Origin: an uncultured bacterium
GTDB lineage: Bacteria; Patescibacteriota; Minisyncoccia; Phycocordibacterales; UBA2100
NCBI GenBank assembly: GCA_903881205.1
Contig: CAIRSC010000089.1
Coordinates: 1-26,491, forward strand
Direction of reading: 5' to 3'
Length of the DNA: 26,491 bases
The first letter of the stretch is position 1; each line of letters opens with the position of its first letter. Below are positions 5,634 through 19,796 of this stretch, in pieces. Under the pieces are notes generated by a model. It was not told the origin of the DNA. It made no database searches and saw only the letters and a program-made list of their open reading frames with translations. The position numbers and the translations under genes are program-made.

Positions 5634-6209
5634 ATGCGGGTCGTTACCTTCGACATAGAGACCGCGAACTGGCTTGCGGATACGGGTTCGAATGACCCGG
5701 CATCGCTCACGATCGCGATCGTCTGCGCGCACGATTCCGAGACAGACGAATATACGAGCTATCTTGAACACGAGCTGCCCAAGATGTGGAACATGCTGGA
5801 GCGCACTGATGTGCTTGTGGGCTACAATTCCGATCATTTTGATGTGCCGCTTTTGAACAAATATTATCCCGGCGATCTGACCAAAATAAAGAGTCTCGAC
5901 ATTATGAAAGAGGTCCAGGCGGTGCTGGGTCGCCGGCTGCGGCTCGACGCGATCGCGGAAGGCACGCTTGGCGTCAAGAAAAGCGGCAACGGCGGACAGT
6001 CGATTGTGTGGTGGCGCAACGGCGAGATCGATAAGGTGCGCCAGTATTGCCTCAAGGATGTAGAGATCACAAAGCGAATTTTTGATTATGCGCTCGAACA
6101 CGGTGGTGTGAGGTATCGGGAGCTCGGCAAGACCTACGACGTCAAGCTCGACGTATCAAAATGGCTCAATCCCGCCGGCGGCGCAATGACGTTTACGCTT
6201 GGGCTGTAA
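5634..6209 (+). CDS. RNase H-like 3'-5' exonuclease (DEDD/YprB-like)
   Basis: VTFDIET, VGYNSDHFD, SLD and YCLKDV motifs. Confidence 0.8.
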   Translation: MRVVTFDIETANWLADTGSNDPASLTIAIVCAHDSETDEYTSYLEHELPKMWNMLERTDVLVGYNSDHFDVPLLNKYYPGDLTKIKSLDIMKEVQAVLGRRLRLDAIAEGTLGVKKSGNGGQSIVWWRNGEIDKVRQYCLKDVEITKRIFDYALEHGGVRYRELGKTYDVKLDVSKWLNPAGGAMTFTLGL

Positions 6210-6294
6210 CGCTATTTTGAAAGCTCCCAGATAAGGTCGCTTTCAATGCACTCGAACCAAGGTTCTCGGCCCAAAAATCACTGCGTGTATGTTT

Positions 6295-6391
6295 GTGCAG
6301 AATACTTGCAATAGCTCGAACCAGCGCCGCCGGTGGGGGCGGCGGCGCAAAACCCCCGCAGGAAAACGGCGCGGCGAAGCCGCACCGCTGA
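6295..6391 (+). other. Distal att arm of element 1 encoding the alternative C-terminus of LSR1 (WC-RILAIARTSAAGGGGGAKPPQENGAAKPHR*)
   Basis: In frame with the LSR1 codons TGG TGC across the GTGC core. Stop TGA at 6389-6391. Confidence 0.75.
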
Positions 6392-6463
6392 CAATATCAA
6401 ATTTTTCTTTGGCGGAAAAGGTTCGAGTGCGCGTCTCGCGTACACAATTGTTCTTTACAACAT

Positions 6464-6494
6464 AGAAAGAACCCCTTGCCGAAGCAAGGGGTTC
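6464..6494 (-). terminator. Intrinsic terminator
   Basis: Perfect 11-bp stem gaaccccttgc/gcaaggggttc, a cUUCGg loop on the minus strand followed by TTTCT, downstream of ORF 6612-6836. Confidence 0.7.
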
Positions 6495-6611
6495 AGTAAC
6501 CAACACGAGGAAGGTTCTTATTCGCTCTCTATCCCGTAGGATAGTGAGCATTACCCTTTAAGAGATCCGAAGACCTCAACCTGTGTGTTGTGGTAAGTTC
6601 TTATCCGTCAT

Positions 6612-6836
6612 TTACCGTGACGTTTCCATGGAGACACTCTTGTATCCGAAGATCCGACCGATGAGGTCGGGAAGAATTGCATCGGCGAATGCCGTCAACT
6701 CTTCCTTCGAGATGCCAGTTTCCTTGGCGATATTTCCGAACCGACGCTTTGCTTCGTCGACGCTCGGAAGGCCGTTTTTGCTGGCGTATGTCTTCACCAG
6801 CTCAAGGGCGATTTCGCCTTGGCGTTTGCTATCCAT
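6612..6836 (-). CDS. Small hypothetical protein (cargo of element 1)
   Basis: MDSKRQGEIALELVK... ORF with GAGGAG 6 nt upstream of ATG 6836 and a terminator downstream. Confidence 0.6.
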   Translation of the reverse strand: MDSKRQGEIALELVKTYASKNGLPSVDEAKRRFGNIAKETGISKEELTAFADAILPDLIGRIFGYKSVSMETSR

Positions 6837-7000
6837 GTTTCTCTCCTCAAGGTACTTCATCCACGAAGCCCTCGTGGTAGGGGTCATCAGAGAATCTAAT
6901 GACTCTGTAATTTTACACCCTAAAGTATGAAGTTGTCAAGTGGTTGTGTGGACATCAAAAAATACCCATATTTACCAACGTATTTATTGCAATTGAGCGT

Positions 7001-7287
7001 ATGCCAAAAGAATTTTCTTTTTTCCAATTAACACATGGTTCGAGCCGATGGTTTTCCGGGCTCCTTGGCGGTTTTCGAGTGGTGCGGCTTTGCCGCGCCG
7101 TTTTCCTGCGGGGGTTTTGCGCCGCCGCCCCCACCGGCGGCGCTGGTTCGAGCTATTGCAAGTATTCTGCACCAGTTCGGAAATTGCAAGTCAGAGCTCG
7201 CCGCCGCGCAGGGCGCGGCGGCTCGCGCATAGTGCGGTTTCGGGTCAAAAACAAATTCGATTGGAAAAAAGAAAATTCTTTTGGCAT
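7001..7287. repeat. Composite repeat: 28-bp perfect inverted repeats enclosing an inverted, joined attP and recombinase-gene fragments
   Basis: 7001-7028 and 7260-7287 are perfect IRs. 7030-7056 = rc 8646-8672; 7056-7077 = rc 7451-7472; 7081-7172 = rc 6295-6386 (1 mismatch); 7169-7259 = rc 8682-8772. Confidence 0.95.
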
Positions 7288-7314
7288 TCCTTTAGCAATT
7301 AGAAACAACAAAAT

Positions 7315-8796
7315 ATGAAATACGTACTCTACGTACGAAAGAGCACTGAGGAAGATGACCGACAAGTATTGAGCATTGAAGCTCAGCTTGCTGAGCTGTC
7401 TTTGTATTCCGCCAAAGAAAAATTTGATATTGTTGCCTCCTTTGAGGAGGCGAAAACCGCCAAGGAGCCCGGGCGAACAAAGTTCGCAGAAATGCTGTCA
7501 TATATCGAGAGCGGGAAAGCAGAAGGCATCATATCGTGGCACCCTGACCGTCTCGCGCGCAATTCGGTGGACGGCGGCAAGATTATCCACCTGGTTGACC
7601 GTGGCTTGATTCGTTCCCTCAAATTCCCCACATTCTGGTTTGAACCCACGCCGCAGGGACTATTCATGCTCAATATTGCCTTTGGCCAATCAAAATATTT
7701 TTCTGACAATTTGCGAGAGAACGTGAAAAGAGGATTACGGCAAAAGATACGAAACGGGGTATGGCCCGGCTGGGCTCCGGCGGGGTACCTAAACAACCTC
7801 AAGACCCGAGGAATCGATGTAGACAACGCTAAGGCTCCAAAAGTACGGAAATTATTCGAATTGTACGCCACCGGAGCTTACACGCTCAACTCTCTCGCAA
7901 ATTGGTGCAAAGAAAACGGCTTGCGAGGCAACCGCGACAAGGAACTTCGCATATCCACCGTCCATCACGTCCTGAAAAATATTTTGTACATTGGCCTTAT
8001 GAAATACAACGGCGAGGTATTTGAGGGAACGCACGAGCCGATCCTGACAAAGAAACTTTTTGACCGAGTGCAGGAAATCCTCGCACAGCGGGGTAAAAAC
8101 CGCAGGGCCAAGCGGCGCACCTTTGCTTTTTCCGGCTTTCTCACGTGCGGCACCTGCACCTGCGCCATTACCGCCGAGCTACAGAAAGGACACACCTACT
8201 ACCGCTGTACCAAGAAAAAGCAAAAGTGCGACGAGAGATATATCCGCGAGGAAAAACTGACGGAGCAAATGCGGGGTTTCCTGCAAAAAGTTTCTTTGTC
8301 GAGCCAAGACACCGAGAAATGTTTGGCGGCGTTGAACAGCGAGGAAGCGCGAGCAAAAGAGGAATCACAGGGCGAAGTCCAACAACTGAAAACACAAACC
8401 GCAGACCTAGACACGAAGCTGGAAAAGTTGTTGGACGCTTACCTCACCGACGCGCTATCCACAGCGGAATACGCCGCCAAAAAAGAAAAGCTGGTGAACG
8501 AGAAAGTGCGCGTGCAAGAAAAAACCACCGACATCGAGACAAAAGGGGTGTCTTGGCTCGAACCGGCTCGTGAATTCGTTTTGTCTTTGAATCAAGCCAC
8601 GGTTCTGCTTTCCCGAAACGAAAAGAGCGAAATGACAGCGTTTCTGAAAACCATCGGCTCGAACCATGTGTTGCGTAATCGCGAATTTGTTTTTGACCCG
8701 AAACCGCACTATGCGCGAGCCGCCGCGCCCTGCGCGGCGGCGAGCTCTGACTTGCAATTTCCGAACTGGTGCCGAGAACCAGATTCGAACTGGTGA
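7315..8796 (+). CDS. Large serine recombinase LSR1 (resolvase, recombinase, zinc ribbon and coiled-coil domains)
   Basis: Catalytic motif YVRKS, DRLARN, zinc ribbon CGTC...YYRC...C. The last 10 codons overlap tRNA-Phe in antisense. Confidence 0.95.
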   Translation: MKYVLYVRKSTEEDDRQVLSIEAQLAELSLYSAKEKFDIVASFEEAKTAKEPGRTKFAEMLSYIESGKAEGIISWHPDRLARNSVDGGKIIHLVDRGLIRSLKFPTFWFEPTPQGLFMLNIAFGQSKYFSDNLRENVKRGLRQKIRNGVWPGWAPAGYLNNLKTRGIDVDNAKAPKVRKLFELYATGAYTLNSLANWCKENGLRGNRDKELRISTVHHVLKNILYIGLMKYNGEVFEGTHEPILTKKLFDRVQEILAQRGKNRRAKRRTFAFSGFLTCGTCTCAITAELQKGHTYYRCTKKKQKCDERYIREEKLTEQMRGFLQKVSLSSQDTEKCLAALNSEEARAKEESQGEVQQLKTQTADLDTKLEKLLDAYLTDALSTAEYAAKKEKLVNEKVRVQEKTTDIETKGVSWLEPAREFVLSLNQATVLLSRNEKSEMTAFLKTIGSNHVLRNREFVFDPKPHYARAAAPCAAASSDLQFPNWCREPDSNW

Positions 8797-8842
8797 CCCT
8801 TCCCTCTTCAGGGGAATGCTCTACCAACTGAGCTATCTCGGC
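8767..8842 (-). tRNA. tRNA-Phe(GAA) with encoded CCA
   Basis: GCCGAGA acceptor stem, TTCCC-CTGAAGA-GGGAA anticodon arm, TTCGAAT T-loop, ends GGCACCA. Confidence 0.97.
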
Positions 8843-8903
8843 AAATTCCGTCCGTTGGCTGGACGCCCATTAATATACCCGTCTTTGGCCCTTTTCTCAA
8901 TGA

Positions 8904-9218
8904 TTACTGTGCTGTTGTCGTTCCCGTCCCCATGCCGGGAATCTTGTTCTTGAATTGATTCCACGTATTTTCGAGGTCACTAAACTTCGTCTGCGCCTGC
9001 ACACTGGTCCCCTGTATCTGTTGGACCTCATCGAGCATGCGATTTACGACCGGCGCAAGATACGAAAGATAGAACCAGATCGGTGCCGCGAGCAGTGCCG
9101 CATATACGATGGTACGGATAATACCGCCCCAAAAAGCATTGCGCTTCATTGTGCGAAGCATCTTATTGTTCTCGAGCGTAAGGCGGTACGTCTCTCGAAT
9201 AAGATCATTTTCGGGCAT
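8904..9218 (-). CDS. Hypothetical single-pass membrane protein between the two tRNAs
   Basis: 104-aa ORF with one TM helix and coiled-coil character. TGgTACGAT lies 6 nt upstream of the ATG. Confidence 0.7.
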   Translation of the reverse strand: MPENDLIRETYRLTLENNKMLRTMKRNAFWGGIIRTIVYAALLAAPIWFYLSYLAPVVNRMLDEVQQIQGTSVQAQTKFSDLENTWNQFKNKIPGMGTGTTTAQ

Positions 9219-9282
9219 GGAGATATCGTACCATTTAAAACCAACACGCCCCGGAGGGCGTGTGGTAAAGTTGCCTCGTTAC

Positions 9283-9354
9283 CCCCTTGTAGCTCAATGG
9301 ATAGAGCAGTCCCGTCCTAAGGGAAAGATGTAGGTTCGATTCCTGCTAAGGGGA
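9283..9354 (+). tRNA. tRNA-Arg(CCT), no encoded CCA
   Basis: CCCCTTG/TAAGGGG acceptor, GCTC/GAGC D stem, loop GTCCTAA, GTAGG-TTCGATT-CCTGC T arm. Confidence 0.9.
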
Positions 9355-10867
9355 CATGACAATTCTGACCACCACCTGACGCCGATGTCAGTGTGAAGAT
9401 TGGCGCTAATTCGACGGTTTTGAATTCCGGATACTGGAACCCGACATTTTGGGGGAAGAAGAGGCTTATCAAAACCCTAAGCTCTCCAGGCTCCAGCGTT
9501 GCCCAACAATGCGGGAATTCTTTTACGAGGCTAATGCCGAACTTTACTGCTGACTCTACTGACTCCTCGGGGCTGATGAGTGCGCTCCTCTGAATTTCCA
9601 GATTCCGCTGCTCTGCTTGCTGCTTCTCACTTTTGCGAGCGTAGTCCTCGTTGGTAATCTTTCTCTCCAGCATCAGCTGCAATAAGGAATCTCTCTCCTC
9701 TTGCAGCTTTTCCATTCTCCTCTCAACTTTCTCTGCAAGACTCAAGCTCTCTTTGTTCTCTTTCTCATGGGCGATGATTATTGCTTCTCCTACTGCGTCC
9801 AACACGTTGGAATCCGGAGTAATGGATTCAAGGAATCTTGTGAAGTCATCTTCCATGTCCGTTTTAGCGATTGCTCTTCTGAGAGGACAACCGAAATTCA
9901 TGCAGCTGTAGTAACCGTACATTTTGCTTCTGCCCTTAGTACGACCTCCCGTCAGGTTTCCTCCGCAGCCACCGCACTTCAGCCCCCTGAGAGGAAAGTC
10001 AGGATTATTCCTACTGCGAGGCTGCTTACGAGATTTGCTGCCCTCCTTGAGAAGCTGCACCTTGAAATACAATTCCTTAGAAATGATGGGCTCATGTCTG
10101 CCTTGTACCGAGATGTTGAATTTTGGTATTTCGATCCAGCCGTAGTGGATTGGGTTCCGTAGGATGTTATATACAAGCTGCTTTCCTACTTTGCGGCCGA
10201 ATCTACTGCGGATATCTCCCATCGCATTAATCTTTTTAGCGATTTCCAGATAGGTCGTTGTGCCTCTTGCGAACTCCTCAAAGCAGAACTTAACGATGGA
10301 CGCTTTTTGAGGATGTGGGGTTATGGTCTTTTTACCGAGTTCATCCTTGCTGTTTTTATAGCCCCAAGGCGCAAGAACAGGCCAATATCCATCGAGGGCT
10401 TTTGCTTTCATGCCAGCGACAGCTCTCTCACCTCGGACATCATTGTCGAACTGAGCGATGACAGCCAGCATTCCCTCCGAGAGTCTTCCGTGAGAAGTGT
10501 TCTCAATCAATTCCGTGGCAGATCTTAGTTCGACCTTACACTCTCGGAGCACTAACTTTATTGCGAAGTGGTCTACTTGATTGCGAGCCAACCTATCGAC
10601 CTTGTAGACGATCAGGTACCCAATTCTCCCTACGTTTTTTATGCAGTGCTTCTGGAGGTTTTGTAGCTCCGTTCTGTCTGCATTCTTCGCTGACTCTCCT
10701 TCTTCACGAAACACCTGCAGAACCTCCCAGCCATTTTTATCCGCGTAGGCTCTGCAATCCTTTTCCTGATTCATGAGGCTGTATCCCCGCACTTGGTCTT
10801 CGGACGAGACACGCACATAGATGATGCAGGTCTTTGGACGCTCAACGCTCTTAATTTGTTTTTTCAT
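9317..10867 (-). CDS. Large serine recombinase LSR2
   Basis: YVRVSS, VDRLARN, zinc ribbon CGGC...YYSC...C and a coiled coil. The C-terminus VPLAGIEPTSFP* is read from the antisense strand of tRNA-Arg. Confidence 0.95.
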   Translation of the reverse strand: MKKQIKSVERPKTCIIYVRVSSEDQVRGYSLMNQEKDCRAYADKNGWEVLQVFREEGESAKNADRTELQNLQKHCIKNVGRIGYLIVYKVDRLARNQVDHFAIKLVLRECKVELRSATELIENTSHGRLSEGMLAVIAQFDNDVRGERAVAGMKAKALDGYWPVLAPWGYKNSKDELGKKTITPHPQKASIVKFCFEEFARGTTTYLEIAKKINAMGDIRSRFGRKVGKQLVYNILRNPIHYGWIEIPKFNISVQGRHEPIISKELYFKVQLLKEGSKSRKQPRSRNNPDFPLRGLKCGGCGGNLTGGRTKGRSKMYGYYSCMNFGCPLRRAIAKTDMEDDFTRFLESITPDSNVLDAVGEAIIIAHEKENKESLSLAEKVERRMEKLQEERDSLLQLMLERKITNEDYARKSEKQQAEQRNLEIQRSALISPEESVESAVKFGISLVKEFPHCWATLEPGELRVLISLFFPQNVGFQYPEFKTVELAPIFTLTSASGGGQNCHVPLAGIEPTSFP

Positions 10868-19325: not shown

Positions 19326-19490
19326 CGTACGATAATTATAACCCTGGCGATACGTTAGTTTCCAATTTTCCCCAACTCTTACGATTTGGCCGTCTTTACC
19401 TGCGTACCGGCAAATCAGGACAATACTCGCGCTGACAATTGAGACTTAGAATCTTCATAAAACAAGCCTCTCGATAGGGTTTCCTAATAT

Positions 19491-19516
19491 GTGCGGGCGG
19501 CGGGAATCGAACCCGC
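19491..19516 (-). pseudogene. 3' fragment (T arm plus acceptor strand) of a second tRNA-Gly-like gene
   Basis: The reverse complement reads GCGGG-TTCGATT-CCCGC-CGCCCGC-A. No D or anticodon arm upstream. Confidence 0.6.
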
Positions 19517-19577
19517 AGCTAATCCGAGGGAATGAAAAGTGACGAAGGCAGCTTTTCATCATTTTGCCACTATTTGG

Positions 19578-19707: not shown

Positions 19708-19725
19708 TATTCGCTTCGCTCTTTG

Positions 19726-19796
19726 TGCGGGTACGGGGAATCGAACCCCGCTCTCAACCTTGGGAAGGTCGCATTCTACCACTAAACCATACCCGC
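19726..19796 (-). tRNA. tRNA-Gly(CCC), no encoded CCA
   Basis: GCGGGTA/TACCCGC acceptor, CGACC-TTCCCAA-GGTTG anticodon arm, CGGGG-TTCGATT-CCCCG T arm. Confidence 0.95.

What the first reader, a model, noticed from the sequence alone, without database searches (positions are those of the whole stretch)
7001..7287. Captured ~233-bp mini-circle with an intact attP, inserted inverted into a 54-bp palindrome upstream of LSR1
Seen: all but about 4 of these 287 nt are tiled by repeats. Read on the minus strand they are IR, the LSR1 3' end (8682-8772), core, the distal arm (6295-6386), 22 bp from the LSR1 5' region (7451-7472), 27 bp from the 3' region (8646-8672), and the IR again. ATT is duplicated at 7027-7029 and 7260-7262. 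Removing the insert leaves a perfect 54-bp palindrome centred on AATT that ends 27 nt before the LSR1 ATG. Inference: this is a circularly permuted, doubly deleted non-autonomous derivative of the element. It could be a spare attP or decoy, or a 5' leader that pairs with both ends of the LSR mRNA. It could also be an inversion substrate: flipping between the 91-bp repeats would let LSR1 read into the attP-type tail (NWCRILAIART...) without excision.
Basis: partly seen in the sequence, partly recalled or inferred. Interest (0 to 1): 0.8.

Follow-up and report, generated by a model that had tools for sequence, protein, structure and literature searches.

The report
Inverted spare attP of integrase mini-element
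The 287-base patchwork upstream of the recombinase gene is not a one-off captured mini-circle: it is a second, inverted copy of the mobile element's own attachment site, a fixed part of a widespread and apparently undescribed family of tiny tRNA-targeting elements in ultra-small bacteria.

Summary
Window 7001-7287 is tiled by inverted copies of the element's two ends and of two short pieces of the LSR gene, between a 28-nt inverted repeat.

The element is real and mobile. Sister samples hold the empty site, joining 6294 to 8769, so it spans 6295-8768 (2474 bp) with core GTGC in the 3' end of tRNA-Phe.

The reading as a private captured mini-circle in a palindrome is not supported.
- Nine relatives with LSRs 54-71% identical reproduce the tiling at the same positions.
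- 59 of 60 assessable loci of the wider family (41% identity or more) keep an inverted attP arm upstream of the LSR, mostly 98-100% identical.
- No relative has an uninterrupted palindrome.

The inverted copy carries the coding sequence of a conserved C-terminal helix that integration cuts off the LSR.

Relatives show that the arms recombine: a flipped cargo module, two loci with the LSR co-oriented with the tRNA and full length, one LSR between two tRNA-Ser genes, and LSR-less remnants.

Best reading: a DNA-level recombination module, a spare attP plus a spare 3' exon. Its role as an on/off or directionality switch is inferred, not shown.

The scan met this family before on other DNA (for example e1-744138 and e1-1025595), and I reached the same core conclusion.

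The parts
6295..6298 (+). core GTGC at the left junction (attL)
   Evidence: The empty-site joint 6294->8769 has 4 nt fitting both sides. The arm overlap is 7169-7172.
6299..6389 (+). distal P' arm; in the excised form it encodes the LSR tail RILAIART...PHR and stops at 6389-6391
   Evidence: Inverted copy at 7078-7168 with 2 mismatches; free-form ORF of 516 aa.
6391..6417 (+). t3': inverted copy of LSR nt 93-119 (7407-7433)
   Evidence: 27 nt, 100%; found at the same place in 9 relatives.
6612..6887 (-). cargo ORF of 91 aa (no family hit), with a promoter-like site at 6939-6910 and a terminator hairpin at 6494-6469
   Evidence: The cargo is unrelated between related elements.
7001..7028 (.). 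left 28-nt arm (inverted copy of the LSR leader stretch)
   Evidence: 100% complementary to 7260-7287; homologous arms of 23-34 nt in relatives; a direct copy in front of the cargo in G072.
7030..7056 (+). t1': inverted copy of LSR 8646-8672
   Evidence: 27 nt, 100%; conserved block in relatives.
7056..7077 (+). t2': inverted copy of LSR 7451-7472
   Evidence: 22 nt, 100%. It follows its own LSR copy in each element: 0.67 mismatches to its own copy against 3.3 to other elements' copies.
7078..7259 (-). internal inverted attP: P arm (7259-7173), core (7172-7169), P' arm (7168-7078), read on the minus strand
   Evidence: It carries the tail coding sequence in the LSR frame.
7260..7287 (.). right 28-nt arm, 27 nt before the LSR ATG
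7315..8796 (+). large serine recombinase LSR1, 493 aa as integrated; its last 7 codons read the antisense of tRNA-Phe
   Evidence: Pfam Resolvase, Recombinase and Zn_ribbon_recom.
8682..8768 (+). P arm inside the LSR 3' end
   Evidence: Inverted copy at 7173-7259, 100%.
8769..8772 (+). core GTGC at the right junction (attR)
8767..8842 (-). tRNA-Phe(GAA), the target; the element supplies its 3' end
   Evidence: ARAGORN; Rfam tRNA, 72.9 bits.

Best explanation
Window 6295-8768 is a 2.5-kb integrative element made of a large serine recombinase (LSR) and one cargo gene, inserted in the 3' end of tRNA-Phe. Its attP lies inside the LSR gene, so integration replaces a conserved C-terminal helix with junk read off the tRNA.

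The 287-nt region is the element's second, inverted, complete copy of attP, including the coding sequence of that helix. It is bracketed by two copies of the LSR leader stretch and accompanied by two short LSR-derived pieces. This is a fixed module of the family, not an accident of this genome. It turns the element into two modules, cargo and LSR, each bracketed by inverted att arms.

Shown here:
- The module is conserved across the family.
- The arm copies are kept identical at the DNA level.
- Recombination products occur in relatives: a flipped cargo, a flipped or alternatively integrated LSR, use of the upstream site with a second tRNA gene, and LSR-less remnants.

Inferred:
- The inverted orientation keeps the LSR and the cargo together, because direct repeats would delete one of them.
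- Rare exchange within the P arms (7173-7259 with 8682-8768) flips 7260-8681. That rebuilds a full-length LSR, now co-oriented with tRNA-Phe and downstream of it.
- The module would then act as a spare attP and spare 3' exon, giving an RDF-less element an on/off or directionality switch.
For: Element and core:
- The empty site 6294->8769 is present in runs X17 and X19, and as a minority in X1.

Conservation:
- The whole tiling is reproduced in nine relatives at fixed distances from the ATG.
- 59 of 60 assessable family loci have the arm pair. 32 are 100% identical and 47 are at least 98% identical. Arms run from 45 to 231 nt in that survey. One metagenomic element, outside that survey, has a 521-nt repeat.
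- LSRs only 25-38% identical, including the window's LSR2, lack the pair.

Tail:
- The free-form tail motif (two hydrophobic residues, xx, I/V, R, T, x, F..NP) is conserved across the family.
- It is kept in the inverted copy in at least 34 of 53 loci.
- AlphaFold2 predicts a helix after a disordered linker of about 35 aa.

Recombination products:
- Cargo orientation is opposite in G072 and G177. Both sit in tRNA-Ser and their arms are 106-117 nt.
- The LSR is downstream of and co-oriented with tRNA-Ser, with an intact tail, in G203:C18 and in metagenome contig L136.
- The LSR lies between two inverted tRNA-Ser genes in G306.
- LSR-less remnants carry the junction of the 28-nt arm to the P arm, followed by the core (L082, L083, L150); in L082 and L083 the tRNA follows, while contig L150 ends at the core. 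That junction requires an inversion followed by a deletion.

Other:
- There is no conserved second gene. Cargo differs between elements, and the G055 element has the LSR only.
- DNA-level homogenisation: mismatches between arms show no wobble bias (18 GU-type, 22 AC-type, 17 transversions). Two of the non-canonical loci (G203, G306) have diverged arms, 83% and 89%, and L136 has no arm pair left.
Against: - No read-level proof that either module flips in this window's population. Only 31-mer contigs were available.
- 72 of 74 loci are in the same state, with the LSR convergent on the tRNA. Flipping of the LSR module is therefore rare, transient or selected against.
- The two co-oriented loci have diverged or missing arms. 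They look like old, frozen arrangements rather than a working switch.
- Canonical LSRs do not recombine attP with attR or attL (PMC3783163), so the exchange would have to be homologous recombination or a new LSR activity.
- The short pieces t1', t2' and t3' are too short for efficient homologous recombination, yet they track their LSR copies. This model does not explain them.
- In run X1 the depth of the arms (20-26) and of the internal junction (10.6) is about half of what two copies per element would give. This is unexplained. GC-rich hairpins may depress coverage.
Confidence: 0.62

Rival explanations
1. Capture event. A doubly deleted circular derivative of the element was inserted, with a 3-bp duplication, into a 54-bp palindrome upstream of the LSR, and is a passive fossil or decoy.
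For: On the minus strand the tile is colinear with a circularly permuted, deleted free form: t1, P, core, P', t2. ATT flanks the insert. LSR-less and deleted derivatives exist in relatives.
Against: The same module sits at the same positions in nine diverged elements on different tRNAs. No uninterrupted palindrome was found in 74 loci. Distant relatives have the inverted attP without the arms. The arms are leader copies, direct in G072. The copies evolve in concert with their sources, so they are not a decaying fossil. The tile occurs nowhere else in the genome.
Confidence: 0.06
2. Autoregulatory operator. The LSR binds the attP copy just upstream of its own gene and represses its own transcription, as Tn3/gamma-delta resolvase does at res. 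Recombination at the site is incidental.
For: The site lies 8-212 nt upstream of the ATG in every family member. It necessarily co-evolves with the LSR's specificity. No sigma70-like promoter was found between the site and the ATG, so transcription would have to come through the site. The role of res is from my own knowledge.
Against: An operator needs about 50 bp, not 85-520 nt of perfect identity that includes the tail coding sequence and GC hairpins. It does not explain why the distal P' arm is also duplicated around the cargo. It does not explain the isomers and remnants either.
Confidence: 0.15
3. Passive stabiliser. An old duplication of attP survives only in the inverted orientation, because direct copies delete the LSR or the cargo. 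Gene conversion keeps the arms alike, and there is no regulatory role.
For: No direct-repeat arrangement of the arms was seen in 74 loci, while the LSR-less products expected from such an arrangement exist. Arm decay looks neutral.
Against: Retention for as long as LSRs diverged to 41% identity, including in a 1.7-kb LSR-only element with no cargo to hold. The tail coding sequence is preserved in the non-coding copy.
Confidence: 0.15
4. RNA-level device. The tile is a 5' leader that pairs with both ends of the LSR mRNA, or an antisense RNA, and controls stability or translation.
For: The leader would contain 22, 27 and 91 nt that are perfectly antisense to the coding region. The short pieces co-vary with their targets.
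Against: Among 57 mismatches between P arms in 26 relatives there is no excess of wobble-compatible changes on either strand, and 30% are transversions. The order of the pieces cannot form one continuous duplex with the mRNA. In G072 the short pieces are direct, not antisense. There was no Rfam hit. No transcript data were available.
Confidence: 0.05
5. Assembly artefact: collapsed or chimeric repeats.
For: The arms have about half the expected depth in X1. Many relatives' contigs end at the arms.
Against: Junctions with 0-1 nt of overlap cannot be made by a de Bruijn graph without reads that carry them. An independent assembly gives the same junctions. The same architecture appears inside long contigs of some 60 genomes from many studies.
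Confidence: 0.01

Closest known systems
Phage-type large serine integrases (phiC31, Bxb1, A118/LI, SPbeta SprA; PMC3783163, PMC11722253)
   Same: Resolvase, Recombinase and zinc-ribbon domains, with a long coiled-coil. A short core and precise attP x attB insertion. No host factor implied.
   Different: attP lies inside the enzyme's own 3' coding end. The target is a tRNA or tmRNA 3' end. The elements are 1.7-12 kb with no conserved RDF gene. A second, inverted attP is always kept.
SSV-type 'suicidal' integrases of archaeal viruses and plasmids (PMC7253208, PMC8371274)
   Same: The attachment site lies within the integrase ORF, the target is a tRNA gene, and the gene is split by integration.
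   Different: Those are tyrosine recombinases, split into two inactive halves with no spare copy. Here a serine recombinase loses only a C-terminal helix of about 15-30 aa, and an inverted spare copy of that end stays in the element.
Invertible segments with serine invertases (Salmonella Hin, Mu Gin G segment, P1 Cin); 2-micron plasmid Flp/FRT inverted repeats (own knowledge)
   Same: The recombinase gene lies in or next to a segment bracketed by inverted repeats that contain the crossover site. Inversion can exchange the 3' end of a gene, as in Mu S/S'. A circle is divided by two inverted repeats into two flippable halves, as in the 2-micron plasmid.
   Different: The arms are 85-520 bp, not 26-34 bp. 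The enzyme is a large integrase, not a small invertase with a Fis enhancer. 72 of 74 loci are in one orientation, so there is no free flip-flop.
Synthetic integrase-RDF fusions (PMC5737554; SPbeta Int-RDF, PMC11722253)
   Same: A short helix tethered by a flexible linker to the integrase C-terminus sets the direction of recombination. The tail here is predicted as a linker plus a helix.
   Different: The tail shows no detected similarity to a known RDF, and its effect on direction is untested.
Tn3/gamma-delta res site upstream of tnpR (own knowledge)
   Same: The recombinase's own site lies just upstream of its gene, which allows autoregulation.
   Different: res is the working crossover site of a small resolvase. 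Here the site is an extra copy, with long perfect arms shared with the element ends.

Membership tests
Large serine recombinase (serine integrase) | N-terminal resolvase catalytic domain, recombinase domain and zinc beta-ribbon | tested here: met
   PF00239 1.1e-20, PF07508 3.6e-18, PF13408 2.2e-7
Large serine recombinase (serine integrase) | Coiled-coil inserted in the C-terminal DNA-binding domain | tested here: met
   On the homologue L125 (49% identical), AlphaFold2 gives helices 338-385 and 391-441. Not folded for LSR1 itself.
Large serine recombinase (serine integrase) | Catalyses attP x attB with a 2-bp staggered cut in a short shared core | not testable with these tools
   Only the footprint is visible: a 4-bp core GTGC and a precise empty site.
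Site-specific integrative element at a tRNA gene | Precise occupied and empty alleles, with the tRNA restored by the element end | tested here: met
   Joint 6294->8769 in X17, X19 and X1. tRNA-Phe is intact.
SSV-type suicidal integrase | att site inside the integrase ORF, so that integration splits the gene | tested here: met
   493 aa when integrated against 516 aa when free. The tail is conserved in the family.
SSV-type suicidal integrase | Tyrosine recombinase fold and chemistry | tested here: not met
   Serine recombinase domains. This is an analogue, not a member.
Invertible DNA switch (Hin/Gin type, invertons) | Segment bracketed by inverted repeats that carry the crossover site | tested here: met
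Invertible DNA switch (Hin/Gin type, invertons) | Both orientations present within one population | tested here: inconclusive
   31-mer contigs cannot tell. Opposite orientations at 100% identity in the P0088 element may be the assembler's choice, because the repeat exceeds k. Orientation does differ between related elements with short arms.
Invertible DNA switch (Hin/Gin type, invertons) | Small serine invertase with an enhancer and Fis | tested here: not met
   The enzyme is a 493-aa LSR.
   The 28-nt arms are present. The 'ATT' duplication depends on one base.
   No other copy in the genome. No uninterrupted palindrome in 74 loci.

The most novel reading that the evidence does not exclude
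The family has a self-contained directionality and expression switch that needs no RDF. The LSR's regulatory C-terminal helix is encoded across attP and is removed by integration. This leaves a tail-less gene that faces the tRNA gene and is covered by antisense tRNA read-through. The helix can be restored without excision by exchange within the P arms of the inverted spare attP, which also places the full-length gene in sense behind the tRNA promoter.
Probability: 0.25. Interest if true: 0.85.

Novelty: new variant of a known kind. Interest (0 to 1): 0.62.

Why it matters
Large serine integrases are main tools for inserting large DNA, and their one-way behaviour normally depends on a separate directionality protein. 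Here the family is very small: some elements are the integrase alone, and none carries a conserved second gene. It is widespread, found in 76 of 401 sampled genomes of the order. It encodes part of the enzyme across its own recombination site and always keeps an inverted spare of that site.

If the spare controls the state of the enzyme, it would be a new and compact way to control direction and expression. It would also be a natural example of cassette and recombinase modules bracketed by inverted att sites. It further explains a recurrent pattern of perfect inverted repeats at tRNA genes, and of contig breaks, in genomes of ultra-small bacteria.

Tried and rejected
- **Complex prediction**. 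I folded the tail (L125 residues 476-511) against the DNA-binding and coiled-coil part (150-456). No verdict: score 0.00, controls not run.
- **State-B junction search**. I looked for the 28-nt arm, the P arm and tRNA-Phe in that order in JGI metagenome contigs. No match. The collection holds only one contig of a 95% relative, so this says nothing.
- **P0088 element, 11.9 kb**. Contigs with identical sequence show cargo and LSR in both orientations. The repeat (521 nt) exceeds the assembler's k, so the two isomers have the same k-mers and the orientation may be the assembler's choice. Not used as evidence.
- **Short metagenome contigs with tail-bearing LSRs**. They could be free circles, but where the arm reaches k they could equally be a path from the LSR into the internal copy. 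Not used as evidence.
- **Depth in X1**. Arms and internal junction are at about half the expected depth. I considered population heterogeneity and could not separate it from coverage bias at GC hairpins.
- **Second copy of the P' arm in G203**. Only a 36-nt, 86% match. Uninformative.
- **Rfam scan of 6000-9500**. Only the tRNAs.
- **Promoter scan**. Nothing sigma70-like upstream of the LSR.
- **Literature searches**. No description of this architecture in the held library.
- **Other readings considered and dropped.** MDA or template-switch chimera, because the module is conserved. An IS bounded by the 27-nt t1'/t1 repeats, because there is no duplication and the junctions are explained otherwise. 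Tandem integration of a cargo circle and an LSR circle followed by inversion of the middle attP, because LSRs are not known to integrate into attL or attR.

Full report
**1. The observation**

- a 28-nt perfect inverted repeat at 7001-7028 / 7260-7287;
- 7030-7056, the reverse complement of 8646-8672;
- 7056-7077, the reverse complement of 7451-7472;
- 7078-7172, the reverse complement of 6295-6389, with 2 mismatches at 6376 and 6387;
- 7166-7259, the reverse complement of 8682-8775, with 1 mismatch at 8773.

Only base 7029 is untiled. One further piece was missed: 6391-6417 is the reverse complement of 7407-7433. None of the pieces occurs elsewhere in the 0.8-Mb, 113-contig genome. An independent assembly of run X1 carries contigs that cross the tile junctions: 6346-7121, 7143-7198, 7169-7259 and 7230-8711. 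Junctions with 0-1 nt of overlap cannot be made by a de Bruijn graph without reads that contain them. The sequence is real.

**2. The surroundings**

- 7315-8796 encodes a 493-aa large serine recombinase, LSR1, with Resolvase, Recombinase and Zn-ribbon domains.
- Its last codons overlap the 3' end of tRNA-Phe (8767-8842, minus strand).
- Contigs of sister samples join 6294 directly to 8769, with 4 nt (GTGC) fitting both sides. These are a 7.7-kb contig in X17, one in X19, and a minority form in X1. X17 and X19 have no depth over 6386-8743.
- The element is therefore 6295-8768, 2474 bp, and is polymorphic in the population.
- It holds one cargo ORF (6612-6887, minus strand, with its own promoter-like site and terminator), the tile, and LSR1.
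- Read on the minus strand, 7078-7259 is exactly the junction that excision would create: P arm, core, P' arm.

**3. Not a private accident**

LSR1 homologues are common. 76 of 401 sampled genomes of the order have one at E of 1e-120 or better. In 74 loci with LSRs at least 41% identical, 60 have enough upstream sequence to judge. Of those, 59 have an inverted repeat between the LSR 3' end and the region just upstream of the LSR. 32 of these are 100% identical and 47 are at least 98% identical, and lengths run from 45 to 231 nt. The exception is a truncated gene. LSRs at 25-38% identity, including the window's LSR2, lack the repeat.

Where the far end is on the contig, the upstream copy continues past the core into a P' arm of 17 to 263 nt. 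That arm is repeated, inverted, at the element's far end. The general plan is therefore: core, P', cargo, inverted P', core, inverted P, leader, LSR, P, core.

Nine elements reproduce the whole tiling. Their LSRs are 54-71% identical to LSR1 and they sit in tRNA-Arg, Tyr, Val, Lys, Phe, Ala and Ser. The pieces lie at fixed distances from the ATG:
- left arm at about -316;
- t1' at -287;
- t2' at -259;
- inverted P' at -238;
- inverted P at -144;
- right arm at -44.

A t3' piece lies next to the distal P' arm. No locus has the two arms abutting as an uninterrupted palindrome.

**4. The 28-nt arms**

In G072, whose LSR is 55% identical, a 15-nt copy of the stretch that precedes the LSR ATG lies in direct orientation in front of the cargo, after direct copies of t2 and t1. 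A direct copy of t3 lies next to the internal inverted P' arm. In G177, a related element in the same tRNA-Ser with 76% nucleotide identity in the LSR, the same pieces are inverted and sit next to the internal copy, as in the window. Arms of 106-117 nt are short enough for reads to span them.

The two elements therefore differ by an inversion of the cargo module between the P' arms. The window's 28-nt arms are two copies of one leader stretch, one heading the cargo side and one heading the LSR. The 'palindrome with an insert' follows from any inverted repeat once the middle is removed, and the ATT 'duplication' rests on base 7029 alone.

**5. The tail**

Joining the P arm to the distal P' arm gives a 516-aa LSR. 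Its tail...NWC-RILAIART..., ends exactly at the end of the P' arm. Across relatives down to 44% identity the free-form tail keeps a motif: two hydrophobic residues, xx, I/V, R, T, x, F..NP.

Metagenome homologues fall into two C-terminal classes. One has this tail. The other has R-D-S-N-P, the antisense reading of a tRNA T-loop, and is the integrated form. AlphaFold2 on the naturally full-length homologue L125 predicts the tail as a helix (residues 492-507, pLDDT about 70) after a disordered linker of about 35 residues.

Integration thus removes a conserved, tethered helix. The inverted internal copy keeps its coding sequence in at least 34 of 53 loci, by a simple motif search. Flipping 7260-8681 would give a 532-aa protein with the tail.

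For SPbeta integrase, a helix of the directionality factor works when fused to the integrase C-terminus through a flexible linker (PMC11722253, PMC5737554). This makes a role of the tail in direction plausible, but I could not test it.

**6. The arms recombine**

Besides the G072/G177 cargo flip:
- (a) In G203:C18, tRNA-Ser is followed, in the same orientation, by an inverted P arm, the leader and a full-length LSR ending ...NWRCFLDEVRTFFDENPEN. This is the arrangement expected from a flip of the LSR module or from integration through the upstream attP. Its arms have diverged to 83%. Metagenome contig L136 shows the same arrangement with 7 kb of host genes upstream and no arm pair left.
- (b) In G306:C4, the LSR lies between two different tRNA-Ser genes in inverted orientation, each joined to a P arm (141 nt, 89%). 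This is expected if the upstream site recombined with a second attB.
- (c) L082, L083 and the metagenome contig L150 (95% identical to the window's element) are LSR-less. They run cargo, then the 28-nt arm, then the P arm in sense, then the core; the tRNA follows in L082 and L083, and L150 ends at the core. L083 and L150 also keep P' and t3' at the far end. That junction exists in the full element only as a reverse complement. These remnants therefore need an inversion, of the tile or of the LSR module, followed by a deletion between the repeats that the inversion made direct.

**7. How the copies stay alike**

Two of the non-canonical loci (G203, G306) have diverged arms, and L136 has no arm pair left. 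Canonical loci are mostly perfect, with a tail of decayed ones. Among 57 mismatches in the P arms of 26 loci there are 18 GU-type, 22 AC-type and 17 transversions, so there is no wobble bias on either strand. This fits DNA-level homogenisation (gene conversion or exchange between the arms) with neutral decay, and argues against selection for an RNA duplex.

The short pieces are different. t2' has 0.67 mismatches to its own LSR copy against 3.3 to the copies of other elements. t3' has 0.89 against 5.1. These pieces are near the lower limit for homologous recombination, and I have no tested explanation for their concerted change. In the LSR gene, t3 and t2 flank a 17-nt hairpin (7434-7450). The pieces may be relics of a second, deleted LSR copy that were co-opted.

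**8. Mechanism**

Shown:
- a conserved inverted attP with the tail coding sequence;
- DNA-level concerted evolution of the arms;
- natural recombination products;
- no conserved second gene. Cargo is unrelated between elements, and the G055 element is 1.73 kb with the LSR only, its two P' copies separated by a 14-nt loop.

Inferred:
- The inverted orientation prevents loss of the LSR or the cargo by recombination between direct repeats.
- The resting state, in 72 of 74 loci, has a tail-less LSR convergent with the tRNA gene, so tRNA read-through would be antisense to it.
- A rare exchange in the P arms would rebuild the full-length gene in sense behind the tRNA promoter.

Whether the tail-less or the full-length enzyme excises is unknown. 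Autoregulation by LSR binding at the upstream copy is compatible with the data and not exclusive.

**9. Comparison and novelty**

The enzyme is a member of the large serine recombinases. The split-gene logic parallels the SSV-type 'suicidal' tyrosine integrases of archaea (PMC7253208). The bracketing by inverted sites parallels Hin/Gin segments and the 2-micron plasmid. None of these combines a serine integrase, an att site in its own 3' end and an obligatory inverted spare. I found no description in the held literature.

Earlier follow-ups of this scan reached the same core reading on other genomes.
- the empty site for this element;
- the refutation of the capture model;
- the cargo-flip pair;
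- the co-oriented and double-tRNA loci;
- the LSR-less remnants;
- the mismatch-spectrum test against RNA pairing.

Noticed in passing
L082:1985-2111, L083:1-70 and 1030-1155, L150:215-1000: LSR-less cassette elements. They run core, (partial) P', t3', one cargo gene, the 28-nt arm, then the P arm and core; the tRNA follows in L082 and L083, and contig L150 ends at the core. They are probably non-autonomous remnants that could be moved in trans.
   Followed up: partly
L138, L139, L142-L149 (metagenome contigs carrying P0088): An 11.9-kb family member with a defence-like cargo (HTH, PLD/SNF2 helicase, MmeI-type methyltransferase-nuclease, AAA_13) and a 521-nt inverted att repeat. It is found with an intact attP on both sides and also with host junctions, and the cargo protein is listed in 102 blocks of the collection.
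   Followed up: partly
L088:2780-4584 (G306:C4): An LSR flanked by two different tRNA-Ser genes in inverted orientation. This implies that the element's upstream attP caused a chromosomal inversion or rearrangement between two tRNA genes.
   Followed up: partly
window 6295-6375, 7143-7198, 7169-7259 in run X1: The contig depth of the arms (26.4 and 20.4) and of the internal core junction (10.6) is about half of what two copies per element would give. The unique parts are at 21-24.
   Followed up: no
window 7434-7450: A 17-nt hairpin (GCCTCC-TTTGA-GGAGGC) lies between the two LSR pieces (t3, t2) that are copied next to the outer ends of the P' arms. It may mark an old breakpoint.
   Followed up: no
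L021:7608-7657 and 8200-8249 (G055:C10): The 1.73-kb LSR-only element sits next to a 50-nt sequence that ARAGORN does not call as a tRNA. A 90% direct copy lies 590 nt upstream across a NUDIX-like ORF. This is a non-tRNA target or an older scar.
   Followed up: no
L067:7291-8523 (G118:C5): Two successive distal ends (t3' plus P') with a second cargo between them. This is an array of two cassettes behind one LSR.
   Followed up: no
window 19490-19532: A 3' half of a tRNA-like sequence, 72% like the tRNA-Gly 3' end at 19724-19766. It is probably a scar at the far end of the neighbouring island.
   Followed up: no
A1 (alignment of metagenome homologues), C-terminal columns: Integrated copies on many different tRNAs share the tail R-(x)-D-S-N-P, because they read the antisense of the conserved T-loop. 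This gives a quick sequence mark for the integrated state against the free state of these genes.
   Followed up: partly
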